From Candidatus Omnitrophota bacterium (lineage in GTDB: Bacteria > Omnitrophota > Gorgyraeia > Duberdicusellales > 4484-171), in NCBI GenBank assembly GCA_021735655.1, contig JAIPGM010000001.1, positions 161,728-225,727 on the forward strand: a stretch of DNA of 64,000 nt. Direction: 5' to 3'. Positions 1 to 50,919 of the stretch are shown in pieces; positions within the stretch are counted from its first letter, which is position 1, and each line of letters opens with the position of its first letter. The notes under the pieces are model-generated. The model saw nothing but the letters and a program-made list of their open reading frames with translations, was not told where the DNA came from and ran no database searches. A program made the translations under genes and the position numbers.

Positions 1-1
1 C

Positions 2-7200: not shown

Positions 7201-10200
7201 TTATGTGCCGATATTGCGACCCAGTAAATTTCAGCTTACTGAGCCAGCTCAAGGTCAGGAAGCTGAAATTGATCGCGAGGCGCTTTGGACCAAGGATGCT
7301 GTTTTGATGATTTCTACTAAATTCGGAATAGTTCCGGTTTCTTCAGCATTAGCCAATCTTAAGGGCGGTGAGTTCGTCAGTGGCTATGGTAAGCGCGGCA
7401 GCTTTATGATTATTCCGGCAGCCGCTCTAAATTCAAAACAGCAGCTATCTGATATAATTCCCGAGGTTCCGATTCATGTATTTCCTTCGGGATTTTTGGT
7501 GATCAATGATCAGGGCGTAATTCGTTTAAGAGGAACCTCGCATATTGACACTTCTTTAGGAGCAATTCCGATTATGGCCCGGCCAGAATCAGGCCAGTTG
7601 ATGTTAATCGATCCTTTGTTGCATCAGGTTGCCCGTACACACCCTCGCTATCGCGATCACTATCAATCAGTAGTTCAAGAAGATGGAGTGCGTTTTATTG
7701 ATGTGCCCGAGCCTGAACGTCATTTAAATCCTGCTAATTTTGGTATTCTTCCCGGTGGAGAAATATTTATGCCTTATGCGCCGCGGACTAAACAAGTTTT
7801 AATTGAGGCTGGGGTTAATGAGCAGTATATAATAATGTTACCAAGTGAATTTAATAAGTATTTACCAACCCTTCATGTTTTGGCGGGGAGTATTGGCTGT
7901 TTAGTGGCCCAAGCTTTTCATCCGGTTGAGAAGCGAGAGCCGCTCGACAATGGCCATGAAAAAGAAAAACGGCAAACTAGATCCCGAGCAATAGATATAT
8001 CAACCAAAGGTGCTGAAGATTTATTGTTTACTGAGCTTCAAACAGGGAGTTTAGTTAGTTTAGTGGTTGATGGCCTTGAGTATTGGCTTAGCCTTGACCA
8101 GGGCGATGAAGTTTGGTTTGATTTATATCGGCCTAAAGATGATATCATTGGCTATATTTATTTTCGAAATGACGCAATGCCAGCCAGAAAAATAGCCAAT
8201 TTTGGCGGCCCGAGCATTGTTCCGGCTTACCGGGGCAGGCATTTGTCGCGAGTTCTTTATTTTGTTTATTTTCGTTATCTTTGGCGCAATAATTATATCC
8301 CTGAAGAAGACTGTTTGACTATCGATGATCGATTGGCCCTAAAGCTTTATCATGAAGCTAAAAAGTTTTATTACGATCAAGACCATACCTTTACTCCGTT
8401 TCAGATTATTCCCCGAGCCGAAAAGACTAAAGCTGCAAAACCTTTAGATAATGGCCACGATATGGTTCAAAAACAATTATTTGAGTTAATTAAGCGTAAG
8501 TCAGATTCGATTAAAACTTTCTTAGAGCCGTTTGAAGCTTGCCTTGCTTACAATGGAGTGTTAGCTTTGCTGATTCGAGGAAGGCCTGACTTGAGCGTTA
8601 AATTTTTGCTTAAGAAGATTGGCTCGGCTGAGCATTGGTTTTTACTGGCTGAAACTGTTTTAGGAAATCATCAGTTTGTGGTTGATATTTCGCCGCAAGG
8701 AAAGATGTTTACCGATATTGAGGTGCTGGTTGTAGATTGTGCTGAAGCCGGAAAAATAAATTATCTATATGAAGATTATACTGTAGTTAGCGATCAAGAA
8801 ACCGAAAACTTATTGCGAGCCTTAGCAAGACAAAAAGGGATGAATGAGTTCTTGCATTTAGTTCATCAATTACCAGAAGAAAAATGGATAGGTAGGTTAC
8901 CGGATAGTGACCAGTCGATGCCACTTGATAATGGTAAATTAATCAATGAAGGTTCAGAAAGTTCTTTTTCCGATATAACTAATTCGATGCGGGTGACTTT
9001 TGTTATGCCGATGTACAATGAACAGCAACGCTTACTTCCCAAGACTTCTGATAATCCCTATGGTGAAGATGCTTTAAGGGTTAAAGTAAGTCAATTTAGA
9101 GAACTCGAGCAAGAAAATCCTAATTTCCAGTGGCGGCTAATTGCCGTAGATGACGGAACTCCCGGGTTTGCTTCAGCCAAATGCCTTGAGCAGATTTTGG
9201 CTGAGATTGATGCCCAGAATCGGGAATTTAATATCTATTCTAAAGTTTTCGTAGTGGTGATAACTGAACAAGAAAAGAAACTCCTAGGCAGCCGAAAGGG
9301 TGGAGCGGTTTTGCGTGGCTTTCAAGAGGCCCTAAGCCACGGTTGGGCTGATTATATCGGGATTACTGATACTGATATTTCCAGTAATGTTAACCAAACT
9401 AAAGATTTGATTTTGGCTCTTCGCAAAGGTGCTGGAGTAGCCATTGGTTCACGCCGCCAAAGCGGGGCCGAAGCTCGCGGCATACCGCTTTTAGGGAGAG
9501 TTAGCACAGTTATTTATAATTGGTGCATTCGTTTGATTTTGTGGCCGCTTTTTTCAATTCGTGATACCCAGCGCGGTTTTAAACTTTTTCAAAAAGAAGT
9601 AATTGTCAGAATATTACCCTATGCTCGCGATCACCATCTTTCTTTTGATACTGAACTGTTACTTTTGTCGCGTTTAGCCGGATACCAAATAGCTGAGGTG
9701 CCGATTGTCTGGATTGATTCAGCTGAGGCAACTACTTTGGTTATGTCTAAAGATGCTCCAGCGATGCTCTGGCGAGTGATTAAACAAGCCCGCCATATTT
9801 TTAATAATCCTTTTCGCGGCCAAAAGCCGCTCGATAACGGCCGAAAAATAAATCTATCAGTTAGAATGCTCAGAAAAGCTAGATTAATTACTGTTCATGT
9901 TGATGCTGGAGATTGTCCAGCCGCCTTAGCTAGCGCGATTGATAAATTAGTTTCGGGTTTAGGGCAAATCCAAGTAAGCCGTAGTAATATTGTCTTAAAC
10001 ACCGCCCATCAGAATAGCCCTATGGATATTGTTTCGTCGGTAGGCTCTCTCTCAACTGAACAGATAACAACTTTATTTCCTGAAGCTGTTTTTCTGATTG
10101 CTGGCGGCAATGTGTTTAAATGCTTAAGAAATCTAGTTGAGTCATTGGCTGTCGGCTCAGTGAACAAGCGAACTGTTAGGATTTTTGTTCTTTACGATTA

Positions 10201-13200
10201 TACCTATGGCCAAGGCTCTAATTATAGCCCTGAGCAATTAGCCGGTGAATATTATGATTATTTTAGCGATATGCTTTCAGTCTATAGTGATAGGTTTAAT
10301 CTAGCTGTATTTTATCTTGCTCAGAATCAATTCGAGCAGGAAATTTACGGTAAAAATTTATCCGGGCCCAATTTATCTTTAGCAATTATTGAAAAAGAAG
10401 CTTTAGCTAGTCAAGTACCTTTAGATAATGGGCGTAGTCTTGGGGAGTTAACTGCCGAAGGCTACAACTTAAAGTTTCTAGCCCGCAGTTCTGATTTAAG
10501 AATGACTGCCCATTGCCGAAGAGATGTAAGTTTTAATAGTTATCTTTATGATTATCGCCTGGATCCAGAGCATACTTATCGTCAAGCCCAATTAGTTCCT
10601 TTAGTTGCTCGATCGGTTAAGGAAAATGCTTTTAGAAAGTCTTCTGATTGGCAATACTTGCCGCAGCATTTGAAAGATTTATACGATTCCGGTAAAGTTT
10701 TGATGATTGCTTCCCGAGCCCAAGCTAAAGCTAAGCCTAGCCGGTATTCAGCCTTAGTAATTTCTGGCAGGACTGAGGCTTTTAGCGGCCGGATGGGTAT
10801 TTTACTCTATGACAATCGGCCGATCATTGTTTCAATTTTAGATAAGCCTTTTTTCATTGAAGCTAAAGGAATCGGGGTTGCTCAAGGAGGTTTTAGCTCA
10901 GTGCATCGGCGCTCGGGCCATAGATATGAAGTTACCGGGGCTCAGCGTTGGCAAGCTTCCTTAAAAGAATTTACCAGTTTAGAGCTTGAGCGAAAAATCA
11001 GCCGATTTTTTGGAACAGCTGATACCCCACGCGCCTTAGCGGCGATAGTCTATAAATATCCTCAAATGGATCAGTTAATTAGTGATAGCCTAACTAGCCA
11101 GGCTGAGCGAAGAGAAGCTAAAGAGCAGTTAGGCGATAGTTTAGGGATAATGTTGCGGCTTTCGCCTTCGAGCCGCCGCTTTGCTTATAATTTAGAACAG
11201 CGTCACATTAGAATGCTTGGTGAAGCTTCAGCCCGCCTGCTTTGTTCTTATCTTCCCCGAGTGCATACTTCGCCGCATTTTGAAAATCTTCTGGAGTGGG
11301 CCGAAGGCAGTGAATTCTCTTGGTCAGACTATGGAGATATTGAAGTGTTATTTGCTCAAAGTAGTTATCACTGGTCAAGGTCACTGATTAATGCCCGTCG
11401 GATATTAATGTCTTATTTGGAAACTAGTATTAGCTGGAATGTAAATTTATTAAAAAAACTGGGAATAATCGAAACCGAAGCAGAATTTATCAGCGAATAC
11501 CTAGCTGGCTTTGTTGCTTATGCTGAAACTTTAGACTGGATAACTCCTGAGGCAATCGAACGTTTAGCCCGAGTCCGCTCGCCTAAGGAGTTTGTTGACG
11601 TAATGATTTTTGAAGTATTCGCTTTAAATGCTTACAACGTGTTTAAAAAACAAACTTATGAAACTATAGTTGAAGTTAATCAGAATAATTTAGTAGAAGA
11701 ACTTTTAAGCTCGGCTTTAACTATTGCCCAGCGGCAAGAGAAAGCTCAACTTGTTGCTGAGTTAAGTGGACATATTGAAGCAGCTAAACAAGGAGAGGCT
11801 TTTTTAGGTTGTCGAATAAAAAAATCTCAAGCTAATCAAGGGGTGCTTACGCCGGTAGCTCAGCCGGTTAAAAATAGTTCTTGGGCTAATCCCTTTTTTG
11901 ATCAATTCGCTTATGATTTATGGCATGCGCTACTTTTTGATGATCATAACCTTTATGATTATGTTCAGGCTAAATGGGATTATACTGTTGGTGAAGAAGG
12001 GGCTTTTAACGTGGCCGGATTTTATCTGCTTGATGCTCATTATCTTGGGTTGTTGCGTTCGCGCACCAGCATGCATAATATACCGGAAAAATTATATATG
12101 TGTTCAGCTGGATATGAAATGACTGCTAATATCAACAAATTATTGACTGCGATTAATCGAGTTAGTTTGTGCCCTCAGGAAAATACCTTGGTGCGTTCAA
12201 CCGTACGTAACACCTTACAACATGCGATTTCCCAGCGCCTAAGTAAGTGGCGCCTGGCTCGGGCTTTAATATTAGTCGTTGAATCTAACGGCGAAGTTCT
12301 TGCCGGAGACGACAGCACTTATGTTTATATTATGGATTCTGGTCCGGGCATGCCGATTGATGCGGTAATGCAAGGCGATTGGCGAAGACATAGTACGATG
12401 TTTGGTACGGATTTAAAAGGTTTTCGTGAATATAGGGACGTTGAATGGATTCTTGATTCTTGGTCAAGCAAAGCCGGCGGACCGCAACGTTGGGATGGTC
12501 TAAGAGGGGGGCTGGTTGAGGGAGCTTTAGTACCGGACAACATGCCTTTATTTGGTACTTTATTCGGTATGCGGCTTAAGCATGGCTTAGAATCGAGTAG
12601 CAAACCTTTAGACAACGGTAGAGATTCTCGGTCAAAAGGACAAAATCTTGGTAGTTTAGGAACGGCTAATAAGGCCCCTCCGGTAAAAACTTACAATGTC
12701 GAGAGTCCTTTTAATCGGTTTTCGCTGCGCCTTTTAGATTTAATTCTAACCTTATCTTTCTTGCCTCTGATTATTCTAGCTAGCCTACCCATAGCTATAT
12801 TTGTTAAATATCAGATTTTTAAACACAAGACTGGACAGTCAGTTATTTTTAAAGAGCAGAGATTCGGCTATAAGGGTAAACCGTTTATCATGTATAAATT
12901 TCGTACTTATATCGGCGATAAAGATAATCCTAAGGCAGTTTTACTGAGCTTGCGTTGTTTGGGGCTAGATGAGTTACCGCAGTGGTGGAATATCTTAAAG
13001 GGCGATCTTTCAATTTGGGGAGTGCGCCCTAAGTTACAAGATGATCCCAGCTCTGACAGTGATTTCCAAGCACACCTGGATCAGATCAATGATTTACGCA
13101 AGCCGGGAATAATTAGTTTAGCTACGGCTGATGTGCACGCTGAGATGGAGCATGTTTCTTTTTCAGCCGAGCATCGCGATCGTCAGATCGCCTTTGATCT

Positions 13201-16200
13201 TTATGAAGCAGAGTATTGGTCATTCTTTTTAGCTTTTAAAATTGTTGTTTTGAATATCTTTGCTCAATTTAAAGAAGCAGCCAGGATTGTATTCCGAAAT
13301 AAAATTTTAGTTATTGTTGCCGTGCATATTCCGCAAGCCGAGCAGCCAAAAGCCGGCCCAATTTTAAATATTTTAGAATACTTAAGCCAAAGATTCCCTT
13401 CGAAATATTATAGTGTCTTTGTTGGTTTTCCGGATTCAGGAAATCCCAATTTAAATTTAGATTTAGCTATTCCTCAAGGCTTAACCATTGGCTTAGGTGA
13501 AGGCGATGAATACAACATAGTTAATTCTCAAGGCCTTAAACTTAAATTTAGCTGGCAGTTTGAGGGGCCAGACGATTTAAGCCAAAGAACTTTAAAAATT
13601 GGACGCCACAAGTTATTAATGCCATTGTGCGCTGAAAGTTCTCTTCCGGTATTTTCCGGAGCTAAGAAAAAAATTCCCCATAAGGCTATCTTCATTCCCT
13701 TTATTGCTTTTCGTCCATGTATTGTTACCTGTATGAATGATTTAATATTTCTCAATCTTCCGATAATTGGATTAGATACCGCTAATGGCATATTTTTGTT
13801 TGTTCCCGGCTCAACCCAGATTGATATAGTCGGTACAAACAAGCTTCTGGCCGTAGCAATTAATCATTCCGGCAGGGTGATGGGCAGTTCATTTAAAGAT
13901 TTGGACCAAGTCGTTCCTTTAGATAATGGACGTCAAACCATTTCCCACTTCCGAAGTGGGGAAGGTCAGAGCCGGACCGGCCCGACATCCCGTAATTTCC
14001 CCCTGGATAACGGCGGCCGGAATAATGAAGCTATCGAAAACAATCGGTTTTCATTCGCTAATCGTCTAGGAAAAGTTTTAGTTGCTACTGTTATCGGTGG
14101 AATTTCTTTAGGGTTATTGTATTTATTCGGCGGCCTTGATTGGTATACAAATATAAAAAATAGTATTCCTTTAGGGGCAGTGATTTTCTGGCCGGGGGCT
14201 TTCCTGGATATGGTTACCGGTGTTTTGATCTGGTTAATTTCCGATATCGTCGGTCAATATCTTAATCAGGGTAGAAGCATTCGCTATCGGCAAAGTTTTA
14301 AAGTTGGTGCTTGGGGAGTATTTCAAGGGTTGGCTACTCACATTTTGTATAATTTAGTTGAACTGCTTCCGGTTGTGCCTTTACCTTTAGCGCAAGCAAT
14401 GTTTCGAACTATTTTTACTCTTTTTGGCGGACTGACTATTAACATTTTCTATACCGTGGTTGTAGCCCGGGCTCGTAAAGCATCTAAGGCTGAAGGTTAT
14501 AGCGGCCTAAAGGAGCGCCACAAGGCTTATGATGTTATTTTTAGTAAGTTTATCGTCGCCCCAATCAAAACTTATTTTATAGTTAATCTATTACCTCCGG
14601 CAACGCGGGTTATTAGCGAGCAGGCTTGGGAATACTTAATGAAAGTTTTTGATGCTTATTTGATGAACCGTAAAGATTCACTTTTTTCTAGTTATATTCT
14701 AAATTTATTATCTAGAAAAAAACCTTTAGATAACGGCCGCTCCGGGCAGTCGGATGATCAAATAACTTTGGTTTCTGATAATCTGGTTGACTCATTTAGA
14801 AATGTTAGACAAAGGCTGGTAGTAACTGTTAGGCGCGCACAGATGTCTAGATTGGATTTTAAGCCGGGGATAGTGTCACTTCAGAATATGAGCCCAAAGG
14901 TAGATTATTTCTGCCTTTCTTCAATATCTGAACGCCAAGAAGATATCCAAGCCTATAGGCAAGTTCCTTTAGTACAGGATGGTGCTAGTTTTGGAGAAAG
15001 TTACAGTGAAAAATATCTTATTGCTCAGGAACCGGATACCTTAGTTTTAGTTGAGGGTGATGAAGGGTTGATTGCCAGTTTTGATTATTCGCTTTGTGGT
15101 TGTCTAGTCATTCGGGCTAGAAATCTTTTTGGCATGGCCCACTTAAGTCCATTTATAGATTTTTCGGATGAAGAGATGGAAATTGAAAATGATCGGATTT
15201 ATTATAAATATTTATCAGTTTTAGATTATTTCAAATTACAGGGATATAAAGATGTTCAAATTTTTCTCAGTTTGAATGAGCTGCTTCAGGGATTTAAAAC
15301 TTTAAAAGCTAGGCTTTGGTCGGCTGGTGATAGCGATGCGACTAATCGTCAGAGAGTGGTAGATCTTCTTGGGATTGAGGCTAGGCAACGCGGCATAGCT
15401 GTTGTTGATCGCCGCCTTCGACAAAAGTCTGAGGTTCTAGATGTCCTGGGTTTTCCGAGAAAAATGATTAGCCGTCAATGGCTTAATCGCGGCACAAAAC
15501 CCGAAAGTTTTGAAATAATATTTATTGAGACTAGAGATGAGTTGCCAGTAGCCATAAACTCAGAGACTCAACAACCCGAGATTGAATACTTTCAATTCGC
15601 TTGGCCTGTTGTGATACCTCTCGATAATGGCCGCCGGAAACTACCAAATGATGACTGGATTTGGGTTAATGGAGAGAGTTTGCAATTTGTTGGCCGGGAC
15701 GGTTTATTGATAACAGGAATGGAGGGCCGGGGTAAAAGTTTTTTGGCCAGAAAAATATACGATAGCGATGATAGATGGAAAGTCGTATCCTGCGGAGCTA
15801 CTCATGTATGTATAAGGAATGAATTAGCAGAAAGAGCGCTTTTAGGCAGACGTTTATCCGAAAATAATCTTTTATATTCCCGGCTGTCAGGAACAATCCC
15901 GGTAGAACTATCGTTAGATGTAGTTGTTAGGTTGAACTGGGTTATGGCCTTAGACGATCTATACCGAGAAATTTTAGGGGGATTGTTGGCCGATGCCGGG
16001 CAAAGAGAGTCTTTGGGCCTCAAAATTATAGATATGAGCGATCTAGACGTAACTCGGCAATGGCCGAAAGTGTTGAAGTTCATCAATGCGTCTATTGTGA
16101 AACCAGAGACTTACGATAAAGGAAATAGTTTATTTCAAGTCCCTCTTGATAATGGTAGACGAGCTCAAGTTGAACAGGAACGGGAATTTTTGATCCAGAC

Positions 16201-19200
16201 AATCATAAATGTTTTTAGCCAAGGTGAAGGATTATGCCTGGAGCCGGCGCAGATAGAGGCAGCTATTGCTGTAGATACATCATTTGATGAATACAGGATA
16301 GCTAGAAACTTGCCGATAGTTATTGGCCTAAAGGGTAATATTTATGAAAATTGTCCTTTGGCTAGCAAGCCTCTTCTTCTTGTGTTTACCGGCAGAGGAA
16401 GCATAACTAAACCAGAGCTTATCTTCAATGCCTACACCCAGCAAGGTTTAGTCAGAGAAGCAAGCCGTTTAAGTCGTTCGATGGAAACTAAAAATGCAAT
16501 TTGGGAGATACCTTATCATGGCAAGAAGACGGCTTTCATATTGGAAGATAAAAATAACTGGATTGCTTTGGCGGCAGTTTATGGTCCTGAAGATATTTAC
16601 CAACAAGGACTATTGATCTGTAAGGGTGGAGATAGGATAACCAGGTTAGGTACAGAAATTTCTCAAGCCGCTGGTGAGGCAGATGAGGAAGCTATATTTT
16701 CTGATTATTCCCGGGCCTTAGTGGTTGCTCGTCTTTTAGGATTTTCTATCCTTGATGGTCCAGATATGATGCGCCGGGTTAACCGGCGGATGAGCGCTAT
16801 GATCGCGGCAGCAAAAGAGACTGTGGCCGATATCAATGAGTTTGCTAAGGCATACCCTGGTTATGAGGCTGTTGATACACATCACATACTTAAACCTACT
16901 ACCAGTAATCCGGTGGAAGAGGGAGGTTTCCCGCACACTGAATGGATGGTGACTAGTCGAGGGGTTGTTCAGGGGACGGTTACTGCTTTGCGTTGGCTTA
17001 GACAGGTTCTTGACGTTGGAGAGAATAGGTACCCTGAGGAAGTGGTAAGATTTGTTAAAAATTTGAATATATTTGGAAGTCCGATGAGCTATATTGTCCA
17101 AGGCTTTGGTGATGTTGGCAGCGGCATCACTAAGCTTTTTTTGACTATTTTTAAGATTTTTGGGTTTCAGGCCAGGGGTTTTAATAACCGTTACTTTGCA
17201 ATTTATCGCCGCGAAGGATTACCTAAACCATTTTTAGTTGAGGCGCGGGAGATCGTTGAAGTTTCTCCTGATGCTTTAGATCTAGGGAGATTACTGGCAA
17301 TGAAGAGTTTTGATGACCAATTACAGGGGGCGGTGGTTTGGATAGCTAATCCAATTAACCCGAAAACTAAAGAGCCAGTATTTGGTCCTGCTGATGTGGA
17401 CAGAGTAAATCAAGCTCTTGCTGAAAGAGGTGTTACTGCTATTTGGGGTGATCAGACAGTAGTAAATGAACTAATTTATCAAAAGGCAACCGTGCTTTTT
17501 CTGGCTGCAACCGCTAATGTTATTAGTGAACTTTCTCAGGTTGAAAGATTGCAGGTTAAGATTATTTCTGAGGGAGCTAATAATGCAGTTAAACCTGAGT
17601 TAAGAGAGCCTTTAAGAAAAGCTAATGTATTTTATATTCCTGGTGAGCTTCTTAACGGCGGGGGCATATATGCTTCTAAGGAAGATATTCGGCATAACCA
17701 TACCGATGGATCAGAATTAATAAGGCAACATCGGCAATACTATTATATACATGTAACTGATGAGATCGACACATTGGCTCTTCACCGAATGATTTCTTTC
17801 CTTGAGATTTGGGCTGAGTCAGCAGGAAATTTTTCTTTTGATTTAACCGTCCATGTAGAAAAAGTTGCCGGCCGGATTTTTGAAGCAGCTGATAATTTGG
17901 TAAGAACCAATAATACACGTTTGAGAAAATTTACCCAAATTGATCAAAAGAGAACCTTTGATCATCAAGCCGGCCGGCCGACTTTGCCTTGGCGTCATAG
18001 TCTTTATGAAATTGCCATTGAAATGGCACCAATGGGAATACTTTATCATTTGCGGGATGTCGGTAGACACTTATCTTTACTTAATAGATTTAAGGTTGCA
18101 ATAAAGGAAGATGGTCAGATAGATAATTATCATATATGTCGTCTGCGTTTTGCTTTATTTGAGTTGACCAAGCTAGGCTATTATTTAAAAAGTAACCAGC
18201 GCAGAAGGTTAATCGGCCTTCTTCCTGGAATAATTACCGATGAAAAGTGTGATGGCCTATTAAGGAAAGATGCCATGTTTTGTTTGGCAATGGCAATTAG
18301 GTGGCAGGAAGAAGAATCCTGTAAATCTGAGGTAGATCGGGCAAGAAAATTATATTTAGGCATATTACAAAATCCCCTTGAAAGTGCTCAGCTGCATACC
18401 TGGGCTCAGCATTGTCTCTATAGGATTTTCGGAGAAAATTACTTCCGGCGGATAAGCGCTGATTTTGATCGCTTAAACGGAGTTAACTTACCCAAGCCGC
18501 TTGATAACGGTCGGGATAGTTCGGTCGGGATTACCTCAGAACCGTTAAGAATTTTAGCCGAGCTAATTTCGAATAGTTATCGGACTAAGGCTTTAGTAGA
18601 ATTTTTGCAGCCTTTCTTAGATTGTGAATCTGTTAATTATTTACAAGAAGAGATAGCAAAGCATTGCCAGCTACCGGCCTGGGGTGTTGTTTCTTCTAGC
18701 CATTATCTTGATGAAGGGTATTTCTATTATGGTTTAAAATCCGGTATTGATCGCTGTCTCGAAAGAGGAGTTATGGTTGAGAATGACGGTAACAGATTAT
18801 ACGTTACTAAAGATTCAGAGGATACCGTAAAATATAGCGGCCTTGACGAAACTCAAGAAAACCAGTGGGGAATTTTTATTTTTCCAAGCGAGTATTTCAA
18901 TCAGGCTATCAATTGCGGTTATGCCGAGGCCGGCTTAAGGCTTTCACATAACCGCTTAGGCATAACTACTTATCCATACTTCAAAAGTTCTTTATCGCTT
19001 GCGCCGGCACGCTTTCTGATAATTGATAGATCTAAGGCAGATGAACATAGGCACCTGGAAGGCCAGCCGAAGCTAAAAGATAAACTTCAAGCCTTGACCG
19101 AAGCAGGATTGAAGGTTCTATGGTTGCCGGATTCTTCCGGCCCATTCTTTGACCCTGATTTCCAATATGCTTTCGGGGAGTTGTTGTTTAGTAATGATAT

Positions 19201-22200
19201 TCCGGAAACCAATCGCTTTCTTTTTTATCCGTCCGCAGATACTCAAGATCTTACAAAAATCATCTGGTGGGTTTTACAGTCGTTAAGAATGAGTAGTATA
19301 AAAAATCGGCTATTACATAATATGGAGTTAGCTCGGCAATTTAAAAAAATCGGCCCCTTTGATAATGGGCGAGCTGATTTTACAACAGCAGACGAACAGA
19401 TCGGTAATCTTTTTGCTGAGGCAGTTATTACAGGAGATAATGTTTTAATTGAGACTCATTGGGATGCTGTAGCGGCTAAGAGAGGCGGCAGTTTGAATAT
19501 TTTAGAACATGCTGGCTTAAGGATTACAAGAAGTTTAGCTTTAGGAATTGTACCGCGGGCTGGTGAATGGCCGGATAGGGTTGAAACCGATCAAATCATT
19601 CTGAGTTCATCTCGCTATGGTTGGATCGATTCTGAAAGAGATATTGAGCATTTGTTAAGCGGCTTTGATCAAGCCAGATTGCTTAATTCGTTTAATCTTG
19701 GCCATTATTATCAGGGTTGTCACTATCGAAGTTTCCTAAGCTGGCTAGCGGTTTTAAAGAGTAGTCATTTCCCGGCAGTTATTTTTCATTTCATAGGTGA
19801 GCTAATTAATTCTTGGGGTATTAAGCCAGCTGCTAAGAGTGATTTTCCAGTTTTGGCCAGTCGAAGGGATATCTTTTCTTTCGTTAGCGTGCCTTATGTT
19901 TCAGATATAGAAAAATTAGATTTGCCAGTTGCAGTGTTTTTTGATGGTAAGCTTAGTTCGCTTAGGCGTGGCGATAGCCGGAAACAGCCAACTTTAATAT
20001 TAGCTTATTGGCAAGCTTTGAATGGTTTTATTGGTTTTAAAGAACAGATAGCTAGGGAAACAGCAGAATTTCAGAATACCCCTTTAGATAATGGCCGCAA
20101 AGAGCATGACATCTCTGATAGTACGGTAATCCAATGGCCGCTTAATGTAATTGTTAAAGATATGCGCGGTTTATCCAAAGGCGAGATATTAGCTGTTGTT
20201 AAAACCGGTAAAATATTTTGGGGAAGGGAAATAGTAGGAGCTATTTTTTCTGACCGCAATATTGTTTTTGGTAAAGTGGTCGATGATAAGTTTATAGTAT
20301 TTGATGATTGGTTAATTGAAAGAATTCCTGGAGGATTGTTAGAGGGGTTGCGGAGAAGCATTTTATTTTTGCCTTATTTAGGAAGTATTTTAAGAAACAA
20401 GACATCGTCAATAAATAAACCCCTGGATAATGGCAAGAAATATAATTATCGGCAAGTCCTAGAGATGGTTGACTGTTTTGATAGTGCAAGGTTAGAGGCT
20501 CACTTATTTAGAGCTCTTGGCAGAGTTGAGACTGAAGCCGTATCTATAGCTGGTGATATTATTAGGGCGGCTAGAAAATTTGAACGGATAACTAAAGCAG
20601 TAAAATCTCTTTATAGGAAAACTTACGGCAAGCTACCTAATTTTACTCTTGCTTTCGATCCTTCCGGTCAAGGTATGTATGGGGCGTATCAGGAGGATGA
20701 TACAGCCGGATTTTTTGATCATATTGGCGTAGCTCCAGAAGATGTGCTGCTTGAGGTAGGCAGCGGCGATGGAAGCATTTCGGATTTCATGGCCCATATG
20801 TTTGGGATTAAGGCAACTGGGATTGAGGTTTGGGAGCCATATTATCATTACGCAGTTTTCTTAAGAGATGAAGCAGTAAGAAGAAGATTCATTCCAGAAG
20901 GTAAAGTAGATTTTTTAAATAATAATTTAGTAGATGTTGATTTTTCAAAGTATTCTTTAGTGTACTACGCTGCTCTTGGCACAAGAAGAAAAAGTGAGCT
21001 GGCTGCTAGATTGCTTGGGGTAAGAGAAAAATCCAGGATATTAATTCGGGGTTCACCTGATGAGTTAGTGGAAGGGATTATCGCATCACATCCTGATTTT
21101 AGCTTAAGGAAGCTTGAGATAGAAGTTAATGAAAACCTTACTGGAATTAAGGCAAGGGTTTATACTCGAGAGACAATTACCAGTTACCAGCCGGTTCTCG
21201 ACGTTCCTCTAGATAATGGCCGAAAAAATAACCCTCAGATGGTCAGAGCGCGCTTAGCCGCATTTGAAAAATCAATCGAGGGCATCGTGCCTAGGGCAGA
21301 TCCGCTTTATGACCATTTAATTCGTTTTTATCAATATCCTTTGAATAATTTGGGTGAACCTGACGAAGAGACCTATGTAAGGAATAATACCAAGGAGCAG
21401 GAGCGGGAGCTTCTTAGATTCTGGGCCGGCCATTTCGGCCTTCCTAAAAATTACGGCGGTCATGTGACTATCGGAATCGGTCAGGCTGAATATTATGCCA
21501 TGTACGTGGCTAGCAATCGATTTCCCAAGGCTATATTTTATATTTCTAATCAGGTCGATAGCCTTCTTTATGATACTTTACAGGTGTTGGGCATTGATCA
21601 AGGAAGAATAAAGTTAATTAGGTCTTTAGAGAATGGCGAGATCGACTATGGTGATTTAAAGAGAAAGATTAGGGAGAATTCATCATGGCCGGCGGTGGTC
21701 TGCTTGACTGCTGGCAGATTCCTGGGGGCGGTTGATGATTTAGGAAAAGTGGAAGGAATTTTAGGGAGCCTGGGCCTAAAGCATAAACATATTCATTGCA
21801 GCATGTCACCGTTAAGTATAGGCCAGTCGTTTTTGGAAGATGCGGCAAAGATAGATTTTCAACATGGCTTAGATAGCATGAGTCTACCGTTGTATCATTT
21901 TGTAAGGTGTCCGATGCCAGGAGTCATCGTTCTTACCAGAAGGAAATACCTTCAGAACATTGCTTGTAGTCAAAAAGCAGCTGAGTATGTTAACTCTAAC
22001 GACACCACTAATTCTGGATCACGTAGTGGTCATGCTCCGCTTTATCTTTGGTTTGCTACAAAAGTTATTGGGACTAAAGGATTTAAGGCTCAGGCTGAGC
22101 GGGCCAGGGAAGTTTGTGTTTCTATTAAAGCTCTATTTGACCGTTACGGTTATCCTTGCCGGTTCACCGCGCAAAAAAATACAATAATCTTTGAGCCACC

Positions 22201-25200
22201 ATTTTATGAGTTGCGTCAAAAATGGGGCTTATTATCACACGGGCAATGGTCCTGTTTTGAGATTGTACCTTATTTGACCCCGGTTGAGATAGCCGAATTT
22301 GTAAGTGATCTTTTAGGTGATCATTCTCAAGCGGTAGCCGCCCCGGTAGAAACCGTATTTCCGGAACGGATTGTCTATGAACCGTCTCCGGAAGTCTTAG
22401 ATGTTTTGGATCAATTAGAAGCAAGGATCCAAATTTTGATGGAAAGATTTTTAGGATTTCCGGCAAATATCGCCGGCAATGAGACATCTTTTGCTGCCTT
22501 GAGCAGCTTGTTTAAATACACCTTGAGAAAAAAGGATGTGGAAGGTTTTCGACACGAAGCCTTGAAATTTTTTACTGATCTTTACGGTTTAAGGTACGAA
22601 GATTTTTACTGCGGCATAACTGCTGGAGGAACCTGGGGAAATCGGGTTGGCCTATTAGTTGGCCGGGAAAATTTTCCCGGCGGGATACTTTATTACAGTC
22701 AGGATTCGCACTACTCGATTGATAAAGTGGCCAGGAGCCTTAACATGGAAGTAAGAAAGGTCGCCTCTTTGTCTAACGGCCAAATTGATTATGATGAATT
22801 AGCCGAAGCCATAGAGGAAAATCGTGGCCGCCCGGTAATTGTAAATCTTAACATCGGCACAACTATGAAAGGCGCTATCGATAATCCCCAAAGAGTTATT
22901 GAAATATTAAGAGAACAGGATGTTACTGATTACTATATCCATTGTGATGCCGCGCTTTTTGGTATGATTTTACCGTTTCTCGAGGCTGCGCCAAAAATTG
23001 ATCTGGCTAACGGCGTCCATAGTATTGCCATATCCGGACATAAATTTCTCGGCCTACCGATGCCTTCGGGCATATTCATGGTTCGGAAAAATTGTGCTAG
23101 GGATAGATTGATAACTATTTCGGATCGATTATTGACTGCCCAAACTGGCCATGTCATTTTGTATTTTTGGCAGGCTGTTGCTAGCCGAGGGTATGAGGGT
23201 TGCAGAGAAGAAGCTATGGCTTGTGTGGATAATGCCCAATATCTTTATTACAGATTACAGGAAAGGGGATTGCCTTCGGAGGTAAACCCTTTTTCCAATA
23301 TAACAATGTTTTCCCGGCCATCGGGTAGCCTAATTGACACTTGGCAGTTAGCGCCTTGCGGGGACCGCGTCCACGTAGTGGCCATGCAGCATGTTACCAG
23401 AGATAAGATTGATGCTTTTGTCCAAGAGTTAACTAGGGATATGCAGCAAGGGCAGATAGAACTAGCTAGTTCTATGCAGCCTCTTGATAATGGTAGACGG
23501 CGCAAAGCATCGCTAGTGCCAGAGGTAGGCCTTGATGAATTAGTTGAAAAACATTTAGGAAACTTGAAGTTGATATCTTCTGAGTATGGAAAAAGCGTAG
23601 GCATGTTATCTACTATTTTAAGACGACCAGACAATGAGAGCCTTCAACAAAGAGCAGAGGAGTTGAGGAAGATTGGTCCTGGCCGTCTGGCCTTAGCAGC
23701 TGACTTAGGCGAATTCGGAGTAGATAGTTTGAAAATTGGTCAGAAGTATGGCGTTGGCCGAAGAACAGCGGCTAGTTGGCTTGTTAATAATGGATTTGGC
23801 GATAGGGTTAATAGCGCTAGATATAGTCGAAGTAGAACATTAAGACGTCAAAAAATAGCTCAGGAATATGAGCCGATTGCTCGCTTATTAGATGGTGAAG
23901 GCAATCTTTTACAGACATTTTATACCCATATTTCTTGGAAAGAGGTATCTGCTTATCCTTTCGCTGTTTTAGATGAATTAGAAATCCAAGCTACCGAAGT
24001 TTTAAGTTATGGTGGTAAGCAATGGGGTCAGTTTAAGGGGCATGCTGGCCATAGAGCTCGGATAACATTGGAGTGGGGCTATCCAATAGAAGTTGCTATG
24101 TCTAGCAAAAGAGGAGTTGATCAAGGTAGCTATAGAGCCATGCAGCTTAGGACCTATCAGTCAACTCTTTTTGATAGAGAGGGGGAACTCTTAGATACTG
24201 CTTTTTTCGTTTTTGGTTACGATGAAGATTTATGTCGGGGAACAACAAAAGTTGTTAACTATCAATTAACCAAGGCTGGAAGAATTAGTATTTTTGGTGA
24301 TGAACAAATACAGCTAATAAAACATAAACAAGCCTGGGCTAATTTAGTTGCAGTGGATGGAAAGGTGGTCAGGGCTACCATTCTTGATAGAGAGGGCGGG
24401 AATGAGGTTATTACTTATAATTTTTCTCGAGTGTATGATGAAAACAACCGAGTAATTTACACTTTTACTGGAGGTTTAGAGTTTAAGCAAAGCAGTGTGC
24501 CGCCTGCGTTGTTGAAATCTTTAGCTAGAGGAAGAATTGAAGGTATTTACCTAAAAGGTGGTCGTGGCAACTTAACTATTGGCGGCAGAACTTGGGTTGT
24601 TTTAAGTGACTATAAAAATTATCCATGTAGGGCTTATATTGAAGAAGGGCTTGTGGTCAGAGTAGAGGTTTTAGGTGAAGAAGGAGAGGCTGTTTTTACC
24701 AAGCATTCTCACCGCCTTTATGATAGAGAAGATAACTTTGTCGAAGTATTTTATGATTCTATTTCACCAGAGCGACTTAACCAGGTTGGTTTGTGTCGTA
24801 GCAGTCCACTTATTGTGACTCCTTCAGGAGAGTTATGCTTATCTGGAAATCGTTATACTTTTGAAAATGAAGGCGGCTCTAAGGCTATTGTTTGGATTGA
24901 ACCCGGAGTTAAGTTCACCAGAAATAGAAAGCCGGATGGTAAAGCAGTTAGAATTGATTTTTATGATCAATATATGCATTATAAGCATACCCGTTATGCA
25001 GTCAGAATCTATGAAGATGAAGGAGTTTTAATTGATACTTTTTTTGGTCCAGGATATGCTGAGAAGCTAAAGATTTTTGGTGATGTAATTGGCTTTGCTC
25101 AACTCGATACGTTAGGTTCTCTTAATATTGGCTACACAACCCATACCTTTACTAAATATGGTGACCCTCGACATTTTGTTAGATTTAGTCTACACCAGGC

Positions 25201-28200
25201 TCAAGTTCTGGATGTAGATGTTCTTGGCCATGACTATTGTCATATCGATAGAGTTGGCTTTGACGCTTGGCCTGATATGGCTATCGATCACTTTGAAATG
25301 GCCCGAATTGTTGATGAGCAGGATCAGCTATTACACACTTTTTGGTACGGTGTTTATTCAGAACGGATTCCCAATAGAGGTAGAGCTAGAATTTTAGGGG
25401 CGACTTTTACTGCCGGAGGTCACCTGCGACTTGGTAACGAAGATGTTTATCATGATGCGAACTTTCCCGAAGCTAGAGTAAATGTTACTTATATTGACGG
25501 AGAAGTAAGTGAGATATTAATTTATCAGGATGCTCAAGGCAACTCAGTAAATTATCATTATACTAAAAAGCAGATAGATAATTATAAGCGCAGAGTGCAA
25601 TATTATAATCTGCGCGGTCATGTATTCGAGCATGCTTTAAGAGTTGCCTTACCTTTTTTAAGCGACTGCCCTTTTGATTATCAAAAGCGCATTGGTGGTG
25701 AAGTTGATGGGTGGGTTGATGGTGAAGCTGAACCAAAGCCAGCTGATTCCAGATCACTTAAACGTCCAGATTTTACTAGTCCTTTTAGCTGGGCAATGAG
25801 TGAAGGGGTATTGTGCTATATTGATGCTAAATTCAATCTTAGAATTAAGTTTTTAATAGAATATCTAGAGGCAATTAAAGAGACTTTAAGAACTGATTAT
25901 TTTACTGATTGTGATGCCCCAGTTGAAACACATTTTGTAGGAAGAGTTATATTTGAGATAGTTTATTTAGGCAGAGTAAGTGAAGCTAATGTAGAGGCAA
26001 AGTTAGCTGGTCATCAGAGAAATTTTTCAGCTACCAATTCTGAGATGCTCACCTTGAAACCAGTTAGCTTTCTTGATGAGTACGGAGATAGGCTTAAGAC
26101 CGCTGGTCAGGATACTTTAGTAAGGTTTCTGAGACATCTGAGAGTTTTTCATTATAAGCCAGGTCGCAAGAAAGCCTTAGATAGCTATTTAGCCCAATTA
26201 GAACAGGATAAAATTCCCGAGATAGCCGATGAGCAGACTAATCTTTTTTCAAGGCCGCTGGATAATGGCCGAGAAAGATTATTGGTTAGTAGCGGTAATA
26301 GTCATTTAAAAAGTTTTCGTGAGGCGAAAGGTTTATTAGCAAAATTAAAATGTACAGACATTTTTGGGGTTGTCATGGGTTATCGCGCTGCCTTAGCTGA
26401 TAGAGATAATTATCAGAGAGTATTTGCTCGTGATTCTGTTTGGATGGGGTTAGCCGAAATGCTTTCCGGCTGTAAAGGTAGTTTAGCTTTAACATTAAGC
26501 GTATTAAAACATCATCAATGTCGGTACGGACAGAGACGCGGGGCTATTCCGAGTAACATTTCAAGGTATCATCGGGTAAGTTATGGGACAACTAGCCCAA
26601 GAATTGATCCAACCCTTCTTTATATTGTTAGTTCTGGCCAATATTATCGGTCCAGACCAGCCTATTTTCAAAAACAGTTTCTCGTTGAAAATTTATCGCC
26701 GCTACAAAAAGCTATAGCATATTTAGAAAGACAATGGGTTATGGATAACGGTTTATTGTTTATTCCGATTGCCGGAGATTGGGCTGATGAATATTTTCAA
26801 CAAGGCCTTGTTTTGTATGATGAAGTTTTATGGTATATGGCACTTTCAGAGTATGCCTACCTTTTAGCTGAAGATAATAATTCTAATTCAGAAGTTTATC
26901 AAGCTAAGGCTGCTTGGGTAAAGAATATAGTCAGATCCAAATTTTGGATAAATAAAAATCCCGGTCAAGGCAATTTGGGGCATTTCCGTCATTTTTTCAA
27001 TCAATTACAAAGCCCGAATCAGGCAGCGACATTTGGCTGTCCCTATGATAGCTTTGATGCTTTTGGTAATATTTTGGCAATTCTTTCCGGCGTGGCTACA
27101 GAGGAGCAAACTGCTCAGATAATTAAATATATTGATGTAATTTCAGAAAATAATCAGCCATTACTGGTGCCGGCACATTATCCGGCAGAAGAAGTTGAAC
27201 ATTTTGTTCACACAGGTGCTCCGTATCGGTATCAATTTAAGAATAATCCCGGGTGTTATCATAATGCTGGTTTATGGTCATGGTATACAGGTTTATATGT
27301 TGCGGCATTAGTGAAAGCCGGCCGATTAGACCGGGCGGCTAAATTTTTAGAAGGGGTACAGCTAGCCAATGAAGCTAAGGACTCAAATGGCCGGGGGTAT
27401 CATGAGTACCATACTAATATTCCCGGTCAATTGAGTAGGCCGGGTGGAGTTAGCAATTTAGGTGTCAGCGCTGCTGGTTATATAATAGCTCACCAAGCAT
27501 TTTTTAAAAATAAGATTGTTTTTGGTCAGAATCATCCTTTAGACAACGGCCGTCAGATGCCTGATTATTTTTCTCCGGTTGGAGACGTCAATGTAACTCT
27601 TAATAGTTCTTCAGAAAAAGCCCCCCTTGATAACGGAAGAAATTATTCCAGTTCGCCAATATTTCAAGAGACAACCTTTACCTATTGGTTAAGAGTGAGT
27701 TTATATTTATTAAGATTTTTGCTTAGTGCACCTTATTATTTTATTATTACTTTAGTTGTATCAAGAATGATGAAAGGAAAAAACATTTTATTTGTATCTT
27801 ACCGTATTAATGAATTTGCTTTAGATGGAGTATCTTTAGAAATAAAAGAGTGGCGAAATCTTTTATATCGATTGGGCGCACATATTTTTCTATTTTCTGG
27901 TCATAGCAAAATTGTTCAGGATGGAAGTATCACCGGTCAGGCTCCGGATTGCATTGAGAGTGATTTTCTTGCTGAACAGGCAACAAAAATAAGAGAGAAG
28001 ATTGAAAGAGAGGGAAAGCTAGATGCTGAAGATTTTGAATTAATTCATAGAGCAAAAGAGATAATTAAACGCAATCTGCGTAAGTGTATCTTGGAAAATA
28101 ATATTCACTACATTGTTTCGGAAAATGTATTTTGTCTACCGGGAAACCTCGCTCTTGCCGAGGCACTTATAGAACTTGCCGAAGAGTTTCCTCGGTTAGG

Positions 28201-32036: not shown

Positions 32037-32064
32037 AACGATAAGTTAAGATTGAACAATAAAG

Positions 32065-33159: not shown

Positions 33160-33174
33160 CTTTTTAATTTTAAT

Positions 33175-34140: not shown

Positions 34141-34146
34141 TAGACT

Positions 34147-47014: not shown

Positions 47015-47020
47015 AGTTAA

Positions 47021-47839: not shown

Positions 47840-47864
47840 ATAAGCAAAATTGTGAAAATTTAAG

Positions 47865-48737: not shown

Positions 48738-48740
48738 AGG

Positions 48741-50909: not shown

Positions 50910-50919
50910 AAATTTACAT

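What the first reader, a model, noticed from the sequence alone, without database searches (positions are those of the whole stretch)
23495..26254. 920-aa unit with six novel ~95-100-aa repeats and a PD-(D/E)xK-like tail in the middle of a metabolic polyprotein
Seen in sequence: six consecutive repeats (about 23880-25600) each open with R-[LIV]-[YFL]-D-[DER]-[EDQ]-x-x-[LFV]-[LIV]-x-[TV]-F. Examples are RLYDREDNFVEVFY and RIYEDEGVLIDTFF. They are preceded by an HTH-like segment (YGVGRRTAASWLVNNG) and followed by KRPDF-17 aa-YIDAKF, the spacing of a PD-(D/E)xK nuclease core. I cannot place the repeat in any family I know. Inference: this may be a nucleic-acid- or ligand-binding scaffold. Its presence alongside sugar and amino-acid enzymes is unexplained.
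Basis: seen in the sequence. Interest (0 to 1): 0.5.

Follow-up and report, generated by a model that had tools for sequence, protein, structure and literature searches.

The report
Novel beta-repeat unit inside bacterial polyprotein
The 920-residue stretch is a real, self-contained protein module (two DNA-binding helix-turn-helix motifs, six copies of a previously undescribed ~90-residue beta domain, and a tail with a nuclease-like signature) that sits between two copies of a six-residue "separator" peptide in a giant (>9,700 aa) bacterial polyprotein, and the same module recurs in other giant bacterial proteins that use entirely different separator peptides.

Summary
Window 23495-26254 is unit 25 of one ORF of at least 9,751 aa, which 28 copies of P-L-D-N-G-[RK] cut into enzyme-sized units. 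The unit holds two HTH modules, six repeats with a period of 88-100 aa, and a 220-aa tail.

The repeat is a real domain family: 103 copies in 14 proteins out of 1.8 billion. It has no Pfam, NCBIfam, PHROG or PDB assignment. AlphaFold models it confidently (pLDDT 80-98) as a hairpin, a short helix and 5-6 strands. It is not WD40, MORN or RHS.

The only full-length homologue (E 1.5e-81) is a 901-aa unit in a 6,247-aa ORF of another MAG, bounded there by a different separator, RSELR (16 copies). Two other relatives use GAR[ML]A and AG[LQ]EE and fuse the array to a Mokosh MkoA-like helicase.

The tail keeps E...PD...DxK in its longest conserved blocks. No profile or fold search confirmed a PD-(D/E)xK nuclease, and the core is modelled at pLDDT ~30, so the nuclease call remains open.

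Best reading: a nucleic-acid-directed module released from a separator-delimited polyprotein. The separators are the most novel aspect.

The parts
56..29311 (+). Giant ORF (9,751 aa within the window, probably continuing upstream) that contains the unit. 28 P-[LF]-D-N-G separators cut it into 29 units.
   Evidence: No in-frame stop in nt 2-55, and the first GT domain starts at model position 175. All 9 Pfam/NCBIfam domain hits fall inside single units.
23480..23497 (+). Upstream separator P-L-D-N-G-R. The unit as given starts at its R.
   Evidence: The 28 copies use 26 different 15-nt encodings. Expected by chance 0.008, observed 27 exact PLDNG.
23552..23626 (+). HTH module 1 (unit aa 20-44, HLGNLKLISSEYGKSVGMLSTILRR)
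   Evidence: BLASTP to the repeated HTH module of P0014. P0014 is called HTH_23/17/28 by Pfam. Low pLDDT in the model.
23660..23797 (+). HTH module 2 (unit aa 56-101, ...SLKIGQKYGVGRRTAASWLVNNGF)
   Evidence: phmmer hit to P0014, E 2.4e-4 library-wide. Pairwise E 3e-8. Helices at 78-84 and 90-98 in the model.
23882..24163 (+). Repeat 1 (aa 130-223)
   Evidence: pLDDT 85-91.
24164..24427 (+). Repeat 2 (aa 224-311)
24428..24712 (+). Repeat 3 (aa 312-406)
   Evidence: pLDDT 89-96.
24713..25003 (+). Repeat 4 (aa 407-503), with an insertion at aa 472-479
25004..25303 (+). Repeat 5 (aa 504-603)
25304..25594 (+). Repeat 6 (aa 604-700). It ends with the family's array-terminating motif (YQDAQGNSVNY).
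   Evidence: pLDDT 91-98.
25565..25660 (+). Long helix (aa 691-722) joining the array to the tail. It carries the conserved E712 (nt 25628-25630).
   Evidence: AF2 helix, pLDDT 83-94. Conserved 'RG.VFE.AL'.
25661..25765 (+). Acidic, poorly conserved loop (aa 723-757)
   Evidence: pLDDT ~30. Indel relative to P0001.
25766..25834 (+). Putative catalytic core of the tail: P758-D759-F ... Y775-I-D777-A-K779-F
   Evidence: Longest identical blocks between the two known tails. Fold not resolved.
25835..26209 (+). Rest of the tail (aa 781-905), alternating helix/strand alpha/beta domain with conserved VIFE.VYLG, EAN and FHYK.GR
   Evidence: AF2 pLDDT 64-90: H784-805, E819-824, H830-847, E853-858. 42% identity to the P0001 tail.
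26255..26272 (+). Downstream separator P-L-D-N-G-R
   Evidence: The last 9 residues of the unit have pLDDT < 50.

Best explanation
Unit 25 is one protein-sized module of a separator-delimited polyprotein. Its HTH modules, six-domain array and tail have no separator between them, so they are meant to stay together.

Anatomy (shown): two HTH modules; a linker helix; six tandem copies of an undescribed ~90-aa beta domain (hairpin, short helix, 5-6 strands); a long helix; and an alpha/beta tail with a conserved E...PD...DxK signature.

Mechanism (inferred):
- The unit is freed from the giant precursor by cleavage at or next to the flanking PLDNG|R motifs, by an organism-specific protease that has not been identified.
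- The HTH modules bind DNA.
- The beta-domain array is a rigid recognition or scaffold platform. In relatives it carries an MkoA-type SF1 helicase instead of the tail.
- The tail is a Mg2+-dependent PD-(D/E)xK-type nuclease, or a catalytically dead derivative.

Overall it would be a nucleic-acid-directed (regulatory or conflict-type) protein riding in a polyprotein that otherwise holds sugar and amino-acid enzymes.
For: - Unit boundaries coincide with separators.
- The whole unit, and only this unit, is conserved (E 1.5e-81 library-wide; 3e-96 unit-to-unit) as a 901-aa unit bounded by a different separator (RSELR) in the 6,247-aa ORF of L002.
- The repeat family has 103 copies in 14 proteins and confident AF2 models.
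- HTH homology.
- In P0002 and P0003 the array and an MkoA-like helicase (PADLOC E 1e-73 to 1e-78) lie together between two separators.
- E712, D759, D777 and K779 are all conserved and lie in the longest identical blocks of the tail.
- The confidently modelled elements fit the canonical order alpha1...beta3-alpha2-beta4-alpha3-beta5.
- The unit termini are disordered, with pLDDT < 50 at aa 1-13 and 912-920, as expected for accessible cleavage sites.
- Separators are selected at the peptide level (26 encodings of 28 copies; observed 27 exact PLDNG against 0.008 expected) and never interrupt a recognised domain.
Against: - No sequence-profile or structural match to any nuclease.
- The segment holding PD...DxK is modelled at pLDDT ~30, and as helix in one run.
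- Only two tail sequences exist, so the conservation argument is weak: about 3% by chance for four residues at 42% identity.
- Cleavage at separators is not shown, and no protease domain was found in the giant ORF.
- No helicase partner is found in this polyprotein.
- PADLOC finds nothing for the unit itself.
- Nothing ties the unit functionally to the neighbouring sugar and amino-acid enzymes.
Confidence: 0.45

Rival explanations
1. Non-catalytic scaffold or adaptor. The beta-domain array is a protein-protein or protein-ligand platform, the tail is a structural alpha/beta domain, and the E/PD/DxK pattern is fortuitous. The unit organises or regulates other products of the polyprotein.
For: - No nuclease family or fold was recovered.
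- Tandem beta-domain arrays commonly act as scaffolds (general knowledge).
- The array occurs with very different partners: helicase, methyltransferase, HTH_8.
Against: - The PDF and YIDAKFN blocks are the most conserved parts of the whole unit.
- HTH modules and helicase partners point to nucleic acids.
Confidence: 0.3
2. Carbohydrate-binding array. The six beta domains are CBM-like modules that serve the glycosyltransferases and glycoside hydrolases of the same polyprotein.
For: - Neighbouring units are GT4, GH77, GT2, Bac_transf, GH100-like and a mannosylglucosylglycerate-synthase-like enzyme.
- The domains are beta-rich.
Against: - No CBM, Pfam or PDB similarity.
- The conserved homologue sits in a polyprotein of methyltransferases and GNAT with no sugar enzymes.
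- Other partners are helicases and HTH domains.
- The unit has no signal peptide.
Confidence: 0.1
3. Polyprotein-processing factor. The array recognises separators and the tail is a novel protease. This would explain why it is the only unit shared by polyproteins with different separators.
For: - It is the only unit shared by sequence between the window ORF and P0001.
- Array-bearing units occur in four separator-type polyproteins.
- No known protease domain is found in these ORFs.
Against: - Ascertainment bias: every hit was retrieved with this unit as the query.
- P0002 and P0003 carry a helicase, not the tail.
- A neighbouring gene in L004 has the same AGLEE separator but no array.
- Most array proteins show no separators.
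- The tail has no protease-like catalytic motif.
Confidence: 0.07
4. Not a functional feature: a decaying or chimeric ORF, or an assembly artefact.
For: Sequences are very divergent, and most units lack annotation.
Against: - 29 kb without a stop.
- The same sequence occurs in an independent Logan assembly.
- In-frame strong family hits, such as histidine decarboxylase at 505 bits.
- A conserved homologue exists in another MAG.
- AF2 models are confident.
Confidence: 0.03

Closest known systems
PD-(D/E)xK (restriction-endonuclease-like) nucleases fused to HTH or helicase modules (e.g. NERD- or RecB-type domains; from general knowledge)
   Same: A conserved Glu on a preceding helix, then 'PD', then 17 residues, then 'DxK'. 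This is followed by alternating alpha-beta-alpha-beta. The unit also has an N-terminal HTH, and relatives of the array carry SF1 helicases.
   Different: No detectable sequence or fold similarity to any member. The beta1-beta3 core is not modelled. There is an unusually long acidic loop before 'PD'. Additional conserved motifs (EAN, FHYK.GR) are unknown in that superfamily.
Mokosh MkoA (Upf1-like SF1 helicase of an anti-phage system; PADLOC models PDLC03920/03921)
   Same: Relatives P0002, P0003 and P0005 have an MkoA-like helicase (E 1e-72 to 1e-78) C-terminal to the same beta-domain array. They show the same general layout of a large N-terminal region plus a nucleic-acid enzyme.
   Different: Unit 25 has no helicase and no PADLOC hit. 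Only the helicase half of the MkoA models is matched in the relatives. No PLD nuclease partner is seen.
WD40 beta-propellers (2ymu, WRAP-T designs)
   Same: The first 18 residues of each repeat (R-L-Y-D-x-E-G-x-L-L-x-T-F) resemble the 'vkLWd..GqLLqTL' hairpin.
   Different: The period is 88-100 aa, not ~40. Each repeat has 7-8 strands plus a helix. There is no Pfam WD40 hit, and no single matched stretch is significant.
Polyvalent proteins of phages and conjugative elements (Iyer et al. 2017, PMC5512222)
   Same: Giant ORFs that string together many unrelated enzymatic domains and are proposed to be processed into functional units. P0002 lies next to a large serine recombinase.
   Different: Polyvalent proteins are proposed to rely on embedded zincin-like (MPTase) peptidases, and the passages read in that paper mention no separator motif. 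Here no peptidase domain is found, a short identical peptide marks each junction, and the cargo in the window is largely metabolic.
Viral polyproteins (picorna-, poty-, flavivirus type; general knowledge)
   Same: One ORF with mature-protein-sized units. A short conserved motif sits at each junction and differs between lineages, implying a co-evolving protease.
   Different: The host is a cellular bacterial chromosome or MAG. There are up to 28 junctions with an almost invariant 5-6-mer. No protease has been identified and no cleavage shown.
Giant Omnitrophota proteins (West-Roberts et al. 2023, bioRxiv 10.1101/2023.11.21.568195)
   Same: Giant bacterial ORFs suspected to be cleaved into several products.
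   Different: [quoted passage not shown] Here candidate cleavage points are explicit. No C39 or S8 peptidase domain is detected.

Membership tests
PD-(D/E)xK nuclease superfamily | Signature D ...(10-30 aa)... (D/E)-x-K on adjacent strands | tested here: met
   D759 and D777-A-K779 with 17 residues between. Both are identical in the P0001 tail.
PD-(D/E)xK nuclease superfamily | Conserved acidic residue on the helix preceding the sheet | tested here: met
   E712 in 'RG.VFE.AL', inside a helix with pLDDT 83-94.
PD-(D/E)xK nuclease superfamily | alpha-beta-beta-beta-alpha-beta core fold | tested here: inconclusive
PD-(D/E)xK nuclease superfamily | Profile similarity to any member family | tested here: not met
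   Pfam at E <= 10, PHROGs at E <= 1 and a PDB profile search all return no nuclease.
PD-(D/E)xK nuclease superfamily | Metal-dependent nuclease activity | not testable with these tools
   Needs biochemistry.
WD40 / beta-propeller blade | ~40-aa four-stranded blades recognised by WD40 profiles | tested here: not met
   Period 88-100 aa, 7-8 strands plus a helix per repeat. No Pfam WD40 hit. Only an 18-aa hairpin matches.
MORN / YwqK-like repeats | Match to MORN profiles; ~23-aa hairpin units | tested here: not met
   MORN_2 matched 1 of 77 single repeats at E 0.026.
RHS / YD repeats | RHS_repeat profile match; shell-like beta-solenoid | tested here: not met
   No Pfam hit. Foldseek hits to Rhs and teneurin have TM 0.06.
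Mokosh MkoA | Upf1-like SF1 helicase core | tested here: not met
   PADLOC finds nothing for unit 25. Relatives P0002, P0003 and P0005 do match.
HTH DNA-binding domains (HTH_23/28-like) | Helix-turn-helix recognised by profile or homology | tested here: inconclusive
   No direct Pfam hit. There is significant similarity to P0014, whose identical module is HTH_23/17/28. Helices are modelled at low pLDDT.
Polyvalent proteins (PMC5512222) | Giant multidomain protein on a phage or conjugative element with an embedded processing peptidase | tested here: not met
   No peptidase domain and no shared HExxH. No phage or plasmid homologue. Only P0002 shows a recombinase neighbour.
Proteolytically processed polyprotein (viral type) | Conserved short motif at each junction of mature-protein-sized units | tested here: met
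   28 P[LF]DNG motifs. All 9 recognised domains lie within units.
Proteolytically processed polyprotein (viral type) | Actual cleavage, and a cognate protease | not testable with these tools
   No protease identified. Proteomics is needed.

The most novel reading that the evidence does not exclude
Unit 25 is a recurrent cargo of a previously unrecognised class of cellular (bacterial) polyproteins. These are operon-sized ORFs whose enzyme-sized units are separated by an organism-specific 5-6-residue peptide: PLDNG[RK] x28 here, RSELR x16, GAR[ML]A x6 and AG[LQ]EE x5 elsewhere. The same peptide is reused in other genes of the same genome. The units would be released by a co-evolving, still unidentified protease. 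This would be a bacterial counterpart of viral polyprotein expression. It would supply the cleavage points that studies of giant bacterial genes say are missing.
Probability: 0.5. Interest if true: 0.9.

Novelty: new variant of a known kind. Interest (0 to 1): 0.66.

Why it matters
1. It defines a new protein domain family: a ~90-aa beta domain in arrays of 3-19 copies, absent from Pfam, NCBIfam and the PDB. The family is attached to nucleic-acid enzymes, including Mokosh-type helicases, and is so far seen only in giant proteins of uncultured bacteria.

2. The unit is the sequence link that exposed four independent giant ORFs with different, peptide-level-selected junction motifs. If these motifs are cleavage sites, bacteria can express operon-like gene sets as polyproteins. 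Whether giant bacterial ORFs act whole or are cut (raised in bioRxiv 10.1101/2023.11.21.568195) then becomes directly testable. The predicted termini are known to the residue.

3. The motifs could be useful as orthogonal protease/site pairs.

Tried and rejected
- Self-BLASTP and ungapped autocorrelation were too weak to show the repeat. Gapped comparison and profiles were needed.
- The word-index homologue search failed three times, with the unit, the two-sequence alignment and the tail. Only the exhaustive phmmer run found relatives.
- Metagenome, viral, plasmid and phage collections gave nothing. The A5 alignment was too diverse for a pattern scan.
- afdb50 was unavailable.
- Whole-unit Foldseek gave only generic beta-repeat noise.
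- Considered and rejected:
  - WD40, MORN and RHS membership.
  - A DNA- or RNA-level origin of the separators, because of synonymous encodings including both Ser and Arg codon families.
  - A hidden stop or recoded codon, because no codon is constant.
  - Asn-Gly self-cleavage chemistry or a ribosome 'skip', because the other lineages use chemically unrelated motifs.
  - A zincin HExxH protease shared by the polyproteins.
  - Homology between the tail and the array-helicase connector of relatives (hhalign probability 0.2%).
- Attempts to extend the genomic context beyond the window failed, because the products are not on record.
- Literature searches for PLDNG, RSELR, bacterial polyproteins and the sample accessions found nothing relevant.

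Full report
**Check of the observation**

Window 56..29311 (+) is a single ORF of 9,751 codons. It contains 28 copies of P-[LF]-D-N-G, followed by R (17), K (7), H (2), Q or G. The finding's coordinates, 23495-26254, are exactly the 920 codons between the 24th and 25th copies, which I call unit 25.

The six repeats start at unit residues 130, 224, 312, 407, 504 and 604, spaced 88-100 aa apart.
- Self-BLASTP sees nothing.
- Ungapped autocorrelation is only suggestive: lag 94, z = 3.1, within the range of shuffle maxima.
- Gapped pairwise comparison of the six segments gives z up to 8.5.
- A profile seeded with the six repeats converges on 103 domain copies in 14 proteins.

The quoted strings (RLYDREDNFVEVFY, RIYEDEGVLIDTFF, YGVGRRTAASWLVNNG, KRPDF...YIDAKF) are all present.

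**The repeat**

The family consensus is DAEGKLVDSFYGRLSPKKLKKLDDVTIKGLRLDKSGALSIGGRSWARFSDYPGAEVEVDVEDGVVTEVRILDD, with a median period of 87 aa.

AlphaFold2 was run with alignments built from the relatives.
- In the whole unit, the six repeats are modelled at pLDDT 80-95.
- In a shorter construct, repeat 6 reaches pLDDT 91-98.
- Each repeat is a beta hairpin (the R-L-Y-D...T-F motif), a short helix and five to six further strands.

No described family matches.
- Pfam finds nothing for the unit, its pieces or 77 single repeats. The best recurrent family covers 3 of 77 repeats, and MORN_2 covers 1 of 77.
- NCBIfam, PADLOC and PHROGs find nothing.
- PDB sequences give nothing.
- A profile of the six repeats hits WD40 proteins such as 2ymu only through its first 18 positions, summed over many blades, with no single significant stretch.

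It is therefore not a WD40 blade, a MORN repeat or an RHS/YD repeat. Its fold class remains unassigned. afdb50 could not be searched.

**Relatives**

The word-index search found nothing. An exhaustive phmmer search of 1.84 billion representatives found 14 proteins.

Thirteen of them carry arrays of 3-19 repeats.
- In P0002, P0003 and P0005 the array is followed by a conserved connector and an AAA_11/AAA_12 SF1 helicase. PADLOC assigns that helicase to Mokosh MkoA at E 1e-72 to 1e-78.
- P0004 ends in a methyltransferase, and P0013 contains an HTH_8 domain.
- P0014 matches only the N-terminal region. It is four copies of a module that Pfam calls HTH_23/17/28. Unit 25 has two such modules, at aa 20-44 and 56-101.

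**The full-length homologue and the separators**

P0001 (E 1.5e-81) is the complete 6,247-aa ORF 2894..21637 of L002. L002 comes from a 180-kb contig of an uncultured-bacterium MAG with GC 52%.
- It has no PLDNG. Instead it has 16 copies of R-S-E-L-R, encoded with both Ser codon families and both Arg codon families.
- The homologue of unit 25 is the 901-aa unit between the 8th and 9th RSELR: seven repeats plus the same tail, but no HTH.
- No other unit of the two giants is detectably similar.
- Their domain content differs: sugar and amino-acid enzymes here, methyltransferases and GNAT there.

P0002 is a complete 3,777-aa gene in L003, next to a large serine recombinase.
- It has six G-A-R-[ML]-A motifs.
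- The array and helicase form one unit, aa 473-1716.
- An epimerase domain begins 8 residues after another motif.

P0003 is a complete 1,402-aa gene in L004.
- It has five A-G-[LQ]-E-E motifs, one of them 4 residues before the array.
- The neighbouring gene on the other strand has the same AGLEE but no array.

Chance expectation for each motif is 0.001-0.025 copies, against 27, 16, 6 and 4 observed. In the window, PLDNG occurs only in the giant ORF.
- The 28 copies use 26 different nucleotide encodings.
- All nine Pfam/NCBIfam domain hits lie inside single units, often reaching within about 10 residues of a motif.
- The termini of unit 25 are disordered in the model.

These facts show peptide-level selection of an organism-specific junction signal. 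Cleavage by a co-evolving protease is the simplest reading, but it is inferred, not shown. No peptidase domain was found.
- A nucleotide-level signal or a recoded stop is excluded by the synonymous variation.
- Asn-Gly chemistry or a ribosomal skip is unlikely, because the other lineages use unrelated motifs.

**The tail**

Residues 700-920 are 42% identical to the P0001 tail.
- The longest identical blocks are PDFT and Y-I-D-A-K-F-N.
- E712 lies in a confidently modelled helix (pLDDT 83-94).
- aa 784-858 are modelled at pLDDT 64-90 as helix-strand-helix-strand.
- This order (alpha1 with Glu, ..., 'PD', 17 residues, 'DxK', alpha, beta, alpha, beta) is that of a PD-(D/E)xK nuclease.

The evidence against is substantial.
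- The segment that would form beta1-beta3 (aa 728-783) has pLDDT ~30 and was modelled as helix in the first run.
- No profile search supports it.
- The tail is unrelated to the connector found in the helicase-bearing relatives.

I put the nuclease assignment at about one in two.

**How it most likely works**

Shown:
- a discrete, conserved three-part module;
- a new repeat family;
- HTH homology;
- helicase partners in relatives;
- a conserved nuclease-like signature;
- junction motifs on both sides.

Inferred:
- release by cleavage at the PLDNG motifs;
- DNA binding through the HTH modules;
- the array acting as a recognition or scaffold platform for a nucleic-acid enzyme;
- nuclease activity of the tail.

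Why such a module sits among sugar and amino-acid enzymes is still unexplained. One relevant point is that roughly half of the 29 units have no annotation, so the polyprotein is not purely metabolic. The main rival is a non-catalytic scaffold. Carbohydrate binding, a role in polyprotein processing, and artefact are less likely for the reasons listed under the rivals.

**Comparison with what is known**

The closest concepts for the context are the following.
- Polyvalent proteins of mobile elements (PMC5512222). They are proposed to be processed by embedded zincin-like peptidases, and the passages I read there mention no junction motif.
- Viral polyproteins.
- The giant Omnitrophota proteins. 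[quoted passage not shown]

Literature searches for the motifs or for bacterial polyproteins of this kind found nothing.

**Verdict**

The finding is real. The unit itself is a new variant of a known kind: a repeat scaffold plus nucleic-acid modules, built on a new domain family. Its context, separator-delimited bacterial polyproteins with lineage-specific motifs, may be categorically new and deserves its own follow-up.

Noticed in passing
window 1-120 and 56-1240: There is no in-frame stop in nt 2-55, and the upstream reading (RLDPVRDKLLYDYLLKRL-M...) looks coding. The first GT domain begins at model position 175 of a TreT-like family. The giant ORF therefore probably continues beyond the left edge of the window and is longer than 9,751 aa.
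   Followed up: partly
window 2534-2569: Two separators lie only two residues apart (PLDNG-RA-PLDNG-Q). Other 'units' are very short: 38 aa (2420-2533), 23 aa (13931-13999) and 24 aa (27551-27622). Any processing would therefore also release small peptides.
   Followed up: no
window 19355-19372: This is the single variant separator, P-F-D-N-G-R (Phe for Leu). The residue after Gly is not basic in two copies: Q at 2555-2572 and G at 14000-14017.
   Followed up: no
window 21221-23479 (unit 24): The C-terminal half is a strong histidine decarboxylase (NCBIfam NF002748, 505 bits, E 1e-151), ending about 9 residues before the separator. The N-terminal ~440 aa of the same unit have no annotation.
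   Followed up: partly
window 40797-54078: Downstream genes are themselves fusions of whole enzymes but without PLDNG. One 1,284-aa ORF has three radical-SAM/SPASM modules (43160-47014). One 1,052-aa ORF has two B12-radical-SAM modules (50920-54078). There are further radical SAM genes, a methyltransferase, GT1s and ABC-2 exporters. The region looks like a peptide- or natural-product-modifying cluster.
   Followed up: partly
window 29352-35115: A complete Opp-type oligopeptide ABC importer (SBP_bac_5, two permeases, two ATPases) starts 41 nt after the polyprotein stop. It is on the same strand.
   Followed up: no
window 1-30000 vs 30000-64000: GC content is 0.39-0.43 across the polyprotein and 0.34-0.39 downstream. 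GC skew is positive throughout.
   Followed up: no
L003 1465-3394 and 24142-24797: The GAR[ML]A polyprotein (P0002) is flanked by a large serine recombinase and an ORF6N protein, which suggests a mobile element. A second giant gene (4,015 aa called) starts 9 kb downstream.
   Followed up: no
L004 3-4424 (minus strand): A gene of more than 1,474 aa, with a signal/TM-like N-terminus and no beta-array, carries the same AGLEE motif as its neighbour P0003. This suggests separators are organism-wide rather than gene-specific.
   Followed up: partly
P0010 aa 1623-1641 and 3567-3585: An exact 19-residue duplicate (EPMVGPGGGTILEQPNRLL) occurs 1,944 residues apart in a 3,951-aa array protein. It may be a longer type of junction element.
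   Followed up: no
Last repeat of each array (window 25520-25594; P0002 aa ~985-1003, etc.): Arrays end with a conserved terminator variant, 'V(R/K)D..G.P(I/V).' (here YQDAQGNSVNY). It differs from the internal repeat ends.
   Followed up: no
P0002 996-1275, P0003 423-792, P0005 874-1171: A well-conserved ~280-aa helical connector (e.g. 'IERLQRTYRLG.D..LI..AL.HP.VEAWI.R') links the array to the MkoA-like helicase. It has no Pfam hit and is unrelated to the unit-25 tail.
   Followed up: partly
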